From the NCBI RefSeq assembly GCF_024223415.1, contig NZ_CP100500.1: 64,000 bases of DNA. One strand, given 5' to 3'. This document shows, in pieces, positions 1 through 3,000 of the stretch; the stretch's first letter is position 1, and every line of letters begins with the position of its first letter. Made by a program: the position numbers. The stretch is from Escherichia coli (GTDB lineage: Bacteria > Pseudomonadota > Gammaproteobacteria > Enterobacterales > Enterobacteriaceae).

Positions 1-3000
1 AAGCCAATGCGGGAACTGCATCTGCCATCGCTATCGCCTCACAACCACAGGTTAAAACCGGTGACGTGATGATGGTGTCAGCGGGAGCGGGAACCTTCAA
101 CGGTGAATCTGCGGTGTCTGTCGGAACATCATTTAATGCCGGAACGCATACGGTACTTAAAGCCGGTATTTCTGCGGATACACAATCTGATTTCGGCGCA
201 GGTGTCGGCGTGGGATATTCGTTCTAATATTTCAATCCTCAATATAAATAAGAGCAAGGAAGCTTGCCGGGTTCACCTCTTCATTAATTTGTACATTATT
301 TAAGGTTAACAATGATGAATAGCTCCATTAAATCGTTTTCCCTGCTGGCGGTTATATTACTGGCTGGCTGTAGCTCACCCGCTTCCCGCATCGCAGATTG
401 CCAGGCGCAGGGCGTCAGCCATGACACCTGTTATCTCGCAGAACAGCAGCGCCAGACGGCTATTTTAAGTGCTTCCGAAGCGCAGGCATTTAAAAATGCA
501 GAAGCCGCACAACATGCCCAGGCGGCAAAGAAAGCCATTTATAAAGGATTTGGCATGACCTTTAGAATGAGCAGTAAAAACTTTGCTTATCTCAATGATT
601 CATTATGTGCAATTGATGAAGACAATAAAGATGCCACTGTTTATCAGTCAGGTCTGTATAACGTCATTGTTTATCATCACACAGGAAAAGTCGCCTTAAT
701 GAAAGAAGGCCAGTTCGTGGGTTATTTAAAATGAAGGAGCAAAGGAAAATACCCCTGACGCATATTATGATTATCGGTGCGTTTATTTTTGCCTTCTTGC
801 AAGTAGTATTATTAGCCTCCCTGGTTCACGCTGTGAATGTTAACAACGAAATCCAGGAAGGCTTATTTCAGTCGGGGCGCATTATGGTAGAAAGTTTGCA
901 GCATATTCTTTCGGTGCAAACGGGAATTAACTGATTTTCACCCCGCCCGATGATGACAGCAGCCGGAGAGATTTTCGATAATCGGGCAGTCGGCACTGTC
1001 ATCACCGGGGCAGGCATTCGCCAGCGCCAGTAGCTGGTTGCGCATAGATTGCAGTTCTTCGATATGCCGTTCAATCTCCGCCACCTTCTCCAGCGTGCGA
1101 CGTTTGACGTCGGCACTGTGACGCTGCGGGTCGTTAAACAGATTCACCAGCTCGCCGCTCTCTTCCAGGTTAAAGCCCACCTGGCGCGCCTGGCGCAGTA
1201 AGGTCAATTCGTTGAGATGCTGCTGCGTGTAGGTTCGATAACCATTTTCGCTGCGCATCGGCGGCGTCACCAGCCCCTTCTCTTCATAGAAGCGAATGGC
1301 TTTGCTGGTCAGGCCGGTAATTTTTGCTACATCGCTAATGTTCATCGTTCGCGCAACGCCTCCTGTGCTTTGTTAAAGGGTTTCAACAGATAATCCAGCA
1401 CGCTTTTTTTGCCGGTGCGGATATCGACCGTCGCCACCATACCGGGGAATATCGGAAACTGCTGTTTGCTTTTGTTTTCCAGATGGTTGCTGAAAGTGCG
1501 AATGTACACCCGATAGTAATAAACATCGCGCCGCACTTCATCCTGCACGGTGTCTGGTGATATCACCGCGACTTCTCCCGGCAGGCCGCCGTAGATGGAG
1601 TAATCGTAGGCAGTTATTTTCACCAGCGATTTTTGCCCCGGATGGATAAACGCCACATCGCGCGGGGAGATTTTTGCCTCAATCAGCAGTTGCTCATCCA
1701 GCGGCACGATGGTCATCAGTTTACCACCGGGGGCGATGACGCCGCCAACCGTGGTGACGTCAATATCCTGAACAATGCCACGAACTGGCGCAGTAAAGTT
1801 GAGCCTGGTGAGGGAGTCTTCACGCCCACGGATCACCGAACGCTGGGTTTCCACTTCCGCATTGGCTTTTGCTAACTCTTCGCGCGCCTGAACGTAGTAT
1901 TGCGTGCGCACGTCGCTGAGTTTGTTTTCCAGTTCATTGGCCTGGCGTTGCAGGCGCAGCACTTCGACGCTGCTCGCTGCCCCCTGTTTTACCAGCGGCT
2001 GGGTCATCGCCAGTTCGCGATTGACCAGACTGATCCCCTGCGTCAGCCCGGTGGTGGCTTTGTTCAACCCGTCGCGGCGAGTGTTGTACAACGCCGTTTC
2101 CGACTCGATAAGTTCGGGGAATTTATTCAGTTCGTCAGGGAAGACCAGCGGTTTATTGCTCACTTCCGCCCGCAGCCGCGCCGAGGTTGCCAGCGCCGCG
2201 TACAGCCGCGACATCGCTTCCTGGACGTCGGATTCCGTTTTGGTGCGGTTAAGCTGCGCCAGCGGCTGGCCCTGTTCGACAATATCGCCAACTTTCACGT
2301 CGAGATGATACAGAATTCCGCCTTCCAGCGACTGCACCACCTGTTCGCGCCCGGAAGGTTCTACCGTGCCGCTGCCGGTGGTGACTTCATCAAGCTGGAA
2401 GTACCACGCCCAGCCGAGAAAACAGAGCAGCATCACAGCGGTAACGCGTACCGCCAGCGCCGAACGCGGCAGGCGGGGTTCAGTCAGACCACGGTTATAT
2501 TGCAGTTGTCCGTTCATGCCGCAGACCCCTTATTCTTCTCCTGCAACACCACCCGTCGCGCTGTGGGCTCGCCCTGTTCACGCAAAATGGCCTCTTTCGC
2601 GCCATCCATCACAATCCGCCCCTGATCCATAACAATGATGCGGTCCACCAGTTGCAGCATCGCCGTGCGGTGAGTGGCGATAATCAGCGTGCGATGCACA
2701 ATCCACTGTTTCAGTTGTTCGATTAAATACGCTTCTGCCATTTCGTCCAGTGAGGCGCTGGGTTCGTCGAGCAGGACGATATTCGGCTGAGAGATGAGTA
2801 GCCGCGCCAGCAGCAGCGTTTGCCGCTGACCACCAGAGAGGCCAAATCCCCCTTCCTGAATCATGTAGTTGAGGCCGTTTTTCTGCTTCTGCACAAAGGG
2901 CAGCGCTCCGCTGAGGGTTAACGCGCGTTCGATATCTTCATCGCTGGCTTCCGGCATCCCCATGGTGAGGTTTTCCCGCAGCGAACCAAAGAACAGTCGC

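What the first reader, a model, noticed from the sequence alone, without database searches (positions are those of the whole stretch)
1..934. Trimeric-autotransporter anchor fragment, lipoprotein and small membrane protein where K-12 has ybbJ-qmcA
Downstream of cueR, on the opposite strand and converging on it, I expected ybbJ and qmcA from my memory of K-12. Instead the window opens with the C-terminal YadA-like anchor of an adhesin, then a 140-aa lipoprotein and a coupled 67-aa membrane protein ending 3 bp from the cueR stop. This suggests another accessory insertion or a different lineage-specific arrangement, so the cueR locus is flanked by surface-protein genes on both sides.
Basis: partly seen in the sequence, partly recalled or inferred. 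Interest (0 to 1): 0.35.

Follow-up and report, generated by a model that had tools for sequence, protein, structure and literature searches.

The report
Known E. coli island OI-29: small adhesin operon
The window opens inside O-island 29, a known 2.6-kb accessory island found in about a quarter of complete E. coli genomes, which encodes a short YadA-type surface adhesin (published, oddly, as the transcription factor GmrA), a partner-like lipoprotein and a tiny membrane protein, inserted between ybbJ and cueR rather than replacing ybbJ-qmcA.

Summary
Window 3-227 encodes the last 74 residues of a YadA-anchor protein. Window 312-734 encodes a 140-aa lipoprotein. Window 731-934 encodes a 67-aa single-pass membrane protein, coupled to the lipoprotein gene by an ATGA overlap and ending 3 bp from the cueR stop.

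This is an accessory insertion of about 2.56 kb with low GC, present in 1330 of 5426 complete E. coli genomes. However, ybbJ-qmcA are not replaced. They lie just left of the window.

The island is the published O-island 29 of EHEC O157:H7. The published primers map exactly: z0638 is the lipoprotein and z0639 ("GmrA") is the 338-aa YadA-anchor protein. The 67-aa ORF has no Z number.

Two points add modest interest:
- GmrA is published as a DNA-binding activator of fliA. Its sequence instead shows a signal peptide, a coiled-coil stalk and an outer-membrane anchor.
- The lipoprotein belongs to an uncharacterised family with no Pfam entry. It is unrelated to SadB or TpgA. In 18 of 32 loci across Enterobacterales it lies immediately downstream of a headless YadA-anchor gene, so it may be a dedicated adhesin partner.

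Function is inferred from gene neighbourhood only.

The parts
1..227 (+). 3' end (last 74 codons plus the TAA stop at 225-227) of z0639/gmrA. The full gene encodes a 338-aa YadA-family trimeric autotransporter and starts 789 bp before the window.
   Evidence: PF03895 E 7.9e-13. The full ORF is in L001 13211-14227. Residues 244-337 match the solved anchors of AtaA, Hia and YadA. The gmrA qPCR, cloning and deletion primers map here with 0 mismatches.
228..311 (+). 84-bp spacer between the adhesin and lipoprotein genes. It carries an AAGG ribosome-binding site 6 nt before the ATG and has no plus-strand terminator.
   Evidence: Sequence. The terminator scan finds none on the + strand. The published gmrA and z0638 deletion arms lie at 228-265 and 273-311.
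312..734 (+). z0638, a 140-aa lipoprotein. It has lipobox L-A-G-C20 with Ser at +2, a conserved Cys30/Cys40 pair, a Gln/Ala-rich helix at 37-66, and a small beta domain at 75-139.
   Evidence: ORF. Family alignment A1. AF2 model with C-domain pLDDT 80-90. dN/dS 0.03-0.06. z0638 primers map here.
731..934 (+). 67-aa single-pass membrane protein. It has a basic N-terminus, a TM span at about 12-35 and a 32-aa C-terminal helix-prone tail. It is translationally coupled to z0638 by an ATGA overlap. It has no Z number in EDL933 and is annotated as a hypothetical protein in RefSeq.
   Evidence: ORF. RefSeq CDS WP_000664216.1. Homologues in Escherichia species and Pseudocitrobacter. dN/dS 0.15-0.26.
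938..1345 (-). cueR, the conserved right-hand flank of the island. Its stop lies 3 bp from the 67-aa ORF stop.
   Evidence: MerR-family Pfam hits. RefSeq annotation.

Best explanation
Window 1-934 is the right-hand two thirds of O-island 29 (OI-29), a horizontally acquired island of about 2.56 kb with low GC, wedged between the convergent stop codons of ybbJ and cueR.

The island holds a divergent small gene (z0640, 120 aa) and a three-gene, same-strand unit:
1. z0639/gmrA, a short trimeric autotransporter of type Vc. It has a Sec signal peptide, a 3-helix N-domain of about 50 aa, a Pro/Thr linker, one long coiled-coil stalk and a YadA beta-barrel anchor.
2. z0638, a lipoprotein predicted to face the periplasm.
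3. A 67-aa inner-membrane protein with an N-in, C-out topology.

Shown here:
- The identity with OI-29.
- The domain content.
- Purifying selection on both small ORFs.
- The adhesin-lipoprotein pair, often with the z0640-type gene, recurs as a module in many Enterobacterales at unrelated chromosomal sites.

Inferred:
- The three genes form one operon.
- The adhesin is exported, trimerises and sits in the outer membrane as a short, length-polymorphic fibre.
- The lipoprotein, and in Escherichia and Pseudocitrobacter also the small membrane protein, acts in the periplasm as a dedicated partner of this headless adhesin class. It would assist assembly or stability, or dock the periplasmic face of the anchor. 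This is analogous in role, but not homologous, to SadB for SadA or TpgA for AtaA.

My confidence differs by part: about 0.97 for the identity with OI-29, about 0.9 for the adhesin being a YadA-type autotransporter, and about 0.45 for the partner role of the lipoprotein.
For: Identity and location:
- A 100% identical genome shows qmcA-ybbJ-[z0640-like, YadA adhesin, 2 hypotheticals]-cueR. K-12 has ybbJ|cueR abutting.
- 16 of the 17 mapped primer sequences and deletion arms of PMC5826968 map at 0-2 mismatches. They define OI-29, z0638, gmrA and z0640 exactly.
- Island GC is 33-48% against 52-60% in the flanks.
- The island is present in 1330 of 5426 genomes.

Adhesin:
- PF03895 is above the gathering score.
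- It matches solved TAA anchors: AtaA 1.3e-7, Hia 6e-6, YadA 8e-3.
- The N-terminus MKTVNVALLALIISATSSPVVLA|GD looks like a cleavable signal peptide.
- AF2 gives a helix at 101-276.
- Alleles of 338-579 aa differ by stalk modules.
- Public sources name it adhesin or YadA-like.

Module conservation:
- 18 of 32 full-length lipoprotein loci from different species have a GmrA-cluster TAA immediately upstream on the same strand, and 20 of 32 have one within 3 kb.
- z0640-like genes are present in at least 12 loci.
- Pseudocitrobacter carries all four genes at another site beside a recombinase.

Operon structure:
- There is no plus-strand terminator between the genes, and the last two overlap by ATGA.
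- All island genes are co-regulated in the published RNA-seq (Table S3).
Against: - No experiment or structure links the lipoprotein to the adhesin. The link rests on gene neighbourhood only.
- 12 of 32 lipoprotein loci lack a nearby TAA.
- Proteins carrying only the C-terminal domain also occur in prophage moron regions beside Lom/Ail-type proteins, without a TAA.
- The third gene is not universal. It is a 67-aa TM type in Escherichia and Pseudocitrobacter, an unrelated 70-81-aa soluble type in Rahnella and Serratia, and absent in Enterobacter.
- The published OI-29 deletion did not change adherence to HeLa or Caco-2 cells.
- The only published phenotype of gmrA is reduced motility, attributed to DNA binding (PMC5826968).
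- The AF2 anchor region has low confidence because only a monomer could be modelled.
Confidence: 0.6

Rival explanations
1. [not shown]
For: PMC5826968 reports that gmrA and OI-29 deletions reduce motility and flagellation and are complemented by gmrA alone. It also reports EMSA and ChIP-qPCR signals at PfliA and a CDD-predicted DNA-binding domain. A 2024 review from the same group repeats this. Curiously, GmrA relatives in Rahnella and Ewingella carry an in-frame N-terminal HTH-like extension of about 42 aa before the signal segment.
Against: - The cloned ORF begins with a typical Sec signal peptide and ends with a YadA outer-membrane anchor above Pfam's gathering score.
- No HTH or other DNA-binding family is detected in E. 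coli GmrA even at E<1. The only non-anchor hits are coiled-coil noise such as SMC.
- Homologues are length-polymorphic fibres, typical of adhesins.
- The recombinant protein was His-tagged upstream of the signal peptide, which could keep it in the cytoplasm artificially.
- An envelope protein can alter flagellar expression indirectly (inference).
Confidence: 0.12
2. The lipoprotein and the 67-aa protein are independent envelope cargo that merely travel with adhesin genes on mobile DNA. Possible roles include a small periplasmic beta-barrel inhibitor of the MliC/PliC/ACP type, or a phage-moron-like surface-modifying or exclusion factor.
For: - Homologues with only the C-domain sit in prophage regions next to Lom/Ail-like proteins or nin genes.
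- 12 of 32 full-length loci have no TAA.
- The N-module resembles the TraV N-terminus weakly and occurs alone in about 25 loci, only one of which has a TAA.
Against: - There is no sequence or profile signal to MliC/PliC (Pfam PF09864 absent in 50 family members; profile against PDB).
- Adjacency to a rare gene class (YadA-anchor genes number only a few per genome, from general knowledge) in 18 of 32 species-level loci is far above chance.
- The gene order z0640-like, TAA, lipoprotein is kept across genera at different chromosomal sites.
Confidence: 0.25
3. One reading: these genes occupy the place of ybbJ-qmcA, which are missing or relocated in this lineage.
For: ybbJ and qmcA are not visible within window 1-934.
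Against: In the 100% identical genome, qmcA (L001 11007-11924) and ybbJ (11921-12379) are intact directly left of the island. The window simply starts inside the island.
Confidence: 0.01

Closest known systems
O-island 29 (OI-29) of EHEC O157:H7 EDL933: z0638, z0639 (gmrA), z0640 (Perna 2001; Yang et al. 2018, PMC5826968)
   Same: It has the same chromosomal site (ybbJ|cueR) and the same genes. The published deletion arms, cloning primers and qPCR primers match this sequence with 0-2 mismatches. The published size of 2,643 bp is comparable to the roughly 2.56 kb here.
sadBA operon of Salmonella/E. coli (SadA trimeric autotransporter plus SadB export lipoprotein; PMC3953254)
   Same: A TAA gene is paired on the same strand with a small lipoprotein that has an N-terminal helical segment and a C-terminal beta domain. 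The pair is lost together in K-12. The inferred role is a periplasmic helper.
   Different: - No sequence or fold similarity to SadB/YajI.
- The lipoprotein is downstream of the adhesin, not upstream.
- It is 140 aa, whereas SadB is about 213 or more.
- Ser at +2 suggests outer-membrane sorting, whereas SadB is in the inner membrane.
- There is an additional coupled 67-aa membrane protein.
- The adhesin is short and has no YadA head.
TpgA-AtaA of Acinetobacter (peptidoglycan-binding periplasmic partner of a TAA anchor; PMC12523085)
   Same: An accessory envelope protein is encoded next to a TAA. GmrA's anchor aligns to the AtaA anchor chain 9vnj.
   Different: The lipoprotein has no BamE or OmpA-like domain.
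MliC/PliC/ACP small beta-barrel lysozyme inhibitors
   Different: There is no Pfam MliC hit in any of 50 family members and no profile hit to the PDB chains. No inhibitor activity was tested.
YadA/Eib/UpaG-type trimeric autotransporter adhesins
   Same: A signal peptide, a coiled-coil stalk and a C-terminal YadA_anchor. PHROG 'adhesin' phrog_17426 matches at E 9e-23.
   Different: There are no YadA head or stalk Pfam repeats. Instead there is a conserved 3-helix N-terminal domain of about 50 aa. At 338 aa it is very short.

Membership tests
OI-29 of E. coli O157:H7 | Insert between the 3' ends of ybbJ and cueR, absent from K-12 | tested here: met
   The island lies at L001 12380-14937. In K-12 the ybbJ stop abuts the cueR stop.
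OI-29 of E. coli O157:H7 | Sequence identity with the published z0638, gmrA and z0640 primer sites | tested here: met
   16 of the 17 primer sequences and deletion arms map at 0-2 mismatches in the expected order. Only the distal z0640 arm fails.
Type Vc trimeric autotransporter (YadA family) | C-terminal YadA_anchor domain (4 strands per protomer) | tested here: met
   PF03895 scores 48.7 bits on the window fragment and 45 bits on the full protein, against a gathering score of 22.7. There are PDB anchor hits to AtaA, Hia and YadA.
Type Vc trimeric autotransporter (YadA family) | N-terminal Sec signal peptide | tested here: met
   By inspection of MKTVNVALLALIISATSSPVVLA|GD. It is conserved in the alignment. 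No dedicated predictor was available.
Type Vc trimeric autotransporter (YadA family) | Coiled-coil stalk running into the anchor | tested here: met
   The AF2 model has a continuous helix at 101-276 with pLDDT up to 96. Stalk modules are repeated in the alleles.
Type Vc trimeric autotransporter (YadA family) | YadA-like head or stalk repeats (PF05658/PF05662) | tested here: not met
   None in GmrA or in 10 associated homologues. This feature is not obligatory for the family.
Type Vc trimeric autotransporter (YadA family) | Trimerisation and surface display | not testable with these tools
   Only monomer modelling was available, and the anchor is low confidence as a monomer.
SadB/YajI TAA-export lipoprotein | Sequence or profile similarity to SadB/YajI | tested here: not met
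   There is no PDB hit at E<=10 with the single sequence or the family profile.
SadB/YajI TAA-export lipoprotein | C-terminal MATH-like / Ig-like domain | tested here: not met
   [not shown]
SadB/YajI TAA-export lipoprotein | Lipoprotein encoded in an operon with a TAA | tested here: met
   There is a lipobox at C20. The gene is on the same strand, 84 bp downstream of the TAA, with no terminator between. The order is reversed relative to sadBA.
SadB/YajI TAA-export lipoprotein | Inner-membrane retention and enhancement of TAA display | not testable with these tools
   Ser at +2/+3 argues for Lol export to the outer membrane. This is an inference from the +2 rule.
TpgA-type TAA partner | BamE and/or OmpA-like peptidoglycan-binding domain | tested here: not met
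   There are no such Pfam hits.
MliC/PliC lysozyme inhibitors | Pfam MliC (PF09864) signature | tested here: not met
   0 of 50 family members match. The profile against PDB is negative.
MliC/PliC lysozyme inhibitors | Eight-stranded small beta-barrel fold | tested here: inconclusive
   [not shown]
DNA-binding transcription activator (as published for GmrA) | Recognisable DNA-binding domain and cytoplasmic location | tested here: not met
   No HTH or other DNA-binding family at E<1 in E. coli GmrA. A signal peptide and an outer-membrane anchor are present. Actual DNA binding cannot be tested here.

The most novel reading that the evidence does not exclude
Probability: 0.35. Interest if true: 0.55.

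Novelty: already known. Interest (0 to 1): 0.3.

Why it matters
As a genomic feature this is ordinary. It is a catalogued accessory island (OI-29) whose genes are already annotated in RefSeq as a YadA-family adhesin plus hypothetical proteins.

Two things could matter to specialists:
- The only functional paper on the island, and the reviews that cite it, treat the YadA-anchor protein as a cytoplasmic transcription factor. The sequence evidence argues that this assignment needs re-examination. That affects how OI-29 is listed among EHEC regulators.
- Only two helper proteins are known for trimeric autotransporters. The conserved adhesin-lipoprotein module seen here gives a concrete, cheap-to-test candidate for a third, in a genetically tractable organism.

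Tried and rejected
3. The NCBIfam 'XAC1346 family secretion chaperone' (18 bits against a cutoff of 120) and TraV (18-26 bits against 44.75) hits to the N-module are sub-threshold. They cover the signal peptide, lipobox and Cys region only. No paper on XAC1346 was found.
4. Foldseek of the GmrA monomer model against PDB gave no hit with E<1. The long single helix and the unfolded anchor make the monomer model unsuitable.
5. The afdb50 fold library was unavailable.
6. PHROGs, Pfam and PDB gave nothing for z0640, the lipoprotein or the 67-aa protein.
7. There are no flanking direct repeats or att-like sites around the island in E. coli. Only REP-like elements lie at the ybbJ side (sub-threshold naRNA4 hits).
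8. The search for a DNA-binding domain in E. coli GmrA found none.
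Full report
**1. The observation**

- Frame 3 is open from base 3 to a TAA stop at 225-227. It encodes 74 residues ending GAGVGVGYSF. These match the whole Pfam YadA_anchor model (PF03895, E 7.9e-13, 48.7 bits, gathering score 22.7).
- After an 84-bp spacer, a 140-aa ORF (312-734) starts MMNSSIKSFSLLAVILLAGC..., a classical lipobox.
- A 67-aa ORF (731-934) overlaps its stop by ATGA. It has a basic N-terminus and one hydrophobic span.
- Its TGA is 3 bp from the stop of cueR (938-1345, minus strand; MerR family hits).

**2. Where it sits**

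A megablast of window 1-1345 against 5,426 complete E. coli genomes found cueR in 5,424 of them. The full stretch was present in only 1,330.

The 100% identical genome (strain SCU-316, L001) shows this order: fetA, qmcA, ybbJ, a 120-aa ORF on the opposite strand, a 338-aa 'YadA family autotransporter adhesin', the two small ORFs, cueR, then HlyD-family and ABC type I secretion genes and 'BapA-related adhesin SiiEA'.

A K-12-type genome has the ybbJ stop directly abutting the cueR stop. It also keeps only a 98-bp pseudogene remnant of the HlyD gene on the other side of cueR.

But it is an insertion of about 2.56 kb between ybbJ and cueR, not a replacement. qmcA and ybbJ lie just before window position 1. 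The island has 33-48% GC against 52-60% in the flanks. REP-like sequences lie at its ybbJ side. No flanking direct repeats were found.

**3. It is a published island**

The supplementary primer table settles which gene is which. Of the 17 primer sequences and deletion arms I mapped, 16 match L001 with 0-2 mismatches (single checks).

- The OI-29 deletion arms lie in the 3' ends of ybbJ and cueR.
- The z0638 arms flank window 312-734, the lipoprotein.
- The gmrA arms, cloning primers (ATGAAAACTGTAAACGTAGCTTTA = L001 13211) and FLAG-fusion primer (ending at ...GVGYSF) define exactly the 338-aa YadA-anchor ORF.
- The gmrA qPCR primers lie at window 26-45 and 198-213.
- z0640 is the 120-aa opposite-strand ORF.
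- The 67-aa ORF has no Z number. The published z0638 deletion removes its start codon.

**4. What the adhesin gene is**

The full protein has these parts:

- A typical signal peptide (MKTVNVALLALIISATSSPVVLA|GD).
- A conserved N-terminal segment of about 50 residues.
- A Pro/Thr-rich linker.
- A Gln-rich region with repeated modules.
- The anchor.

Pfam finds only YadA_anchor. Residues 244-337 align to the solved anchors of AtaA (9vnj, 1.3e-7), Hia (3emo and 2gr7, 6e-6) and YadA (2lme). PHROGs matches prophage 'adhesin' families.

The AF2 model shows a small 3-helix N-domain (27-69, pLDDT about 75), disorder at 75-103 and a single long helix at 101-276. As expected for a monomer, the anchor is poorly modelled.

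Homologues in E. coli, E. marmotae, E. ruysiae, E. whittamii and cryptic clades are 338-579 aa long and differ by whole stalk modules. This is the usual behaviour of fibrous adhesins. Public sources name them adhesin or YadA-like.

Nothing resembling a DNA-binding domain is detectable in E. coli GmrA, even at E<1. The non-anchor hits are coiled-coil noise such as SMC.

The published assignment of GmrA as a cytoplasmic activator that binds the fliA promoter (repeated in a 2024 review) therefore conflicts with the sequence. No paper in the searchable library mentions the YadA anchor. I cannot judge the experiments. The motility phenotype may be real but indirect.

**5. The lipoprotein and the small membrane protein**

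The lipoprotein has no Pfam, PHROG or above-threshold NCBIfam family.

Its homologues share four features:

- A lipobox with Ser or Thr at +2.
- A conserved Cys30/Cys40 pair.
- A Gln/Ala-rich helix.
- A C-terminal domain with the motif DGxPAAxDE...ATVYxxGLY.VI.Y..GKVALM..G.F.GY.K.

AF2 gives a helical hairpin plus a compact beta domain (mean pLDDT 71.8, C-domain 80-90).

A profile search of 1.84 billion representatives found about 150 relatives. It also showed that the N-module and the C-domain occur separately.

Both ORFs are under purifying selection among Escherichia species. dN/dS is 0.03-0.06 for the lipoprotein and 0.15-0.26 for the 67-aa ORF, whose changes are concentrated in its first 8 residues.

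**6. Gene neighbourhood**

This is the main evidence for function.

- In Pseudocitrobacter faecalis the same four genes occur at an unrelated site beside a serine recombinase. They are a z0640-like gene at 45% identity, a TAA with the same N-domain and anchor (followed there by a second YadA-anchor gene), a lipoprotein, and an overlapping 64-aa membrane protein at 43% identity.
- In Enterobacter asburiae a 293-aa YadA-anchor gene directly precedes the lipoprotein.
- A scan of one genome per GTDB species returned 53 loci. Clustering the neighbours shows that 18 of 32 full-length lipoprotein loci have a GmrA-cluster TAA immediately upstream on the same strand, and 20 of 32 have one within 3 kb. 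These loci include Escherichia, Pseudocitrobacter, Enterobacter, Phytobacter, Rahnella, Yersinia aleksiciae and Ewingella. The 32 comprise 28 loci from this scan plus the 4 fetched earlier (L001, L003-L005).
- z0640-like genes accompany at least 12 loci.
- Eight of ten of these TAAs have PF03895, and none has a YadA head.
- Loci with only the N-module almost never have a TAA.
- A protein with only the C-domain sits downstream of a 714-aa YadA-anchor gene, next to a recombinase and Band_7/NfeD (qmcA/ybbJ-like) genes. Others lie in prophage moron regions beside Lom/Ail-like proteins.

The module is therefore mobile. It repeatedly lands near qmcA-ybbJ-cueR (also L007 and L022). Its conserved core is regulator-like gene, TAA, lipoprotein.

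The third gene varies. It is the 67-aa TM type only in Escherichia and Pseudocitrobacter.

A 2026 preprint surveying TAA neighbours reported only SadB and TpgA as helpers, but it required a YadA head domain. That criterion would exclude this adhesin class.

**7. Most likely mechanism**

Shown here: island identity, domain content, selection and module conservation.

Inferred:

- gmrA, z0638 and the 67-aa ORF form one operon. The spacer is 84 bp, there is no plus-strand terminator, the last two genes overlap by ATGA, and the genes are co-regulated in the published RNA-seq.
- GmrA is exported by Sec, inserted by BAM and displayed as a short trimeric fibre.
- The lipoprotein probably sits in the outer membrane, because of Ser at +2. 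The N-in, C-out 67-aa protein sits in the inner membrane. Both would act in the periplasm on the adhesin, either assisting assembly and stability or docking to the anchor. This is analogous to SadB or TpgA but not homologous to either.

I put about 0.45 on this partner role. Against it:

- 12 of 32 loci lack a TAA.
- The C-domain occurs in phage contexts.
- The OI-29 deletion did not alter adherence to HeLa or Caco-2 cells.

**8. Verdict**

The feature is an already catalogued accessory island. Residual interest comes from two points: the mismatch between the published function of GmrA and its sequence, and a plausible but untested new TAA-partner family.

Noticed in passing
L013 4734-5936, L017 4153-5922, L018 3750-5933, L028 4085-5866, L019 4989-5858 (relatives; not in the window): In Rahnella and Ewingella, and partly in Yersinia aleksiciae, the YadA-anchor gene upstream of the lipoprotein carries an in-frame N-terminal extension of about 42 aa (ERNTQIIAAYIAGNxNKxELARYFGVSxSTIRRVL) directly before the signal-like hydrophobic segment. 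It hits many HTH Pfam families. CENP-B_N scores 22.7 and 24.1 bits against a gathering score of 21.2. E. coli GmrA lacks the extension. An HTH fused in front of an autotransporter signal peptide is unexplained.
   Followed up: partly
window 1342-25456 (minus strand); L002 6405-6502: On the other side of cueR lies a type I secretion system (HlyD-family 391 aa, ABC 713 aa) and a 6925-aa SiiEA/BapA-like repeat adhesin. K-12 keeps only a 98-bp frameshifted HlyD remnant overlapping cueR, so the K-12 arrangement is a deletion derivative on that side.
   Followed up: partly
L006 and L008 (Escherichia sp. E1V33, E. whittamii); L007 (Pseudocitrobacter MAG); L022 (Serratia silvae); L064: The adhesin-lipoprotein module occupies the same ybbJ|cueR site in other Escherichia species, with an extra 409-aa gene of no known family before cueR. 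In Pseudocitrobacter and Serratia it lies on the qmcA side of qmcA-ybbJ-cueR. In L064 and L003 a large serine recombinase is adjacent. This suggests an old, recurrent integration hotspot. For Escherichia it may mean ancestral presence with losses, rather than the four acquisitions proposed in PMC5826968.
   Followed up: partly
L001 12482-12844 (minus strand; about 1.2-1.5 kb left of window position 1): z0640 is a 120-aa protein with no hit in Pfam, PHROGs or PDB. Its N-terminus looks HTH-like (…NRSTVWKYLSG…). It is divergently transcribed from the adhesin and conserved with it in at least 12 loci. It is a more plausible island regulator than the adhesin itself.
   Followed up: partly
L001 13018-13051 and 13137-13170 (promoter region of the adhesin gene, left of the window): An AT-rich 34-nt direct repeat (79% identical, 119 bp apart) with embedded inverted-repeat arms (TTTATAAAAGAAACAA / TTGTTTCTTATAGAAA) lies between z0640 and gmrA. 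It is a candidate operator for the divergent promoters.
   Followed up: no
L062 and L063 (prophage ends); L059 (lambdoid nin region): Secreted or lipoprotein homologues carrying only the lipoprotein's C-terminal domain are encoded in prophage moron regions. These lie after tail-fibre assembly and Lom/Ail-like genes, or among nin genes next to a TolA_C-like protein. The domain has no Pfam or PHROG family.
   Followed up: partly
L001 12340-12500 (ybbJ-side junction, left of the window): Two REP/BIME-like elements (sub-threshold Rfam naRNA4 hits, about 30 bits) sit at the left boundary of the island. The last 10 or so codons of ybbJ differ from K-12.
   Followed up: no
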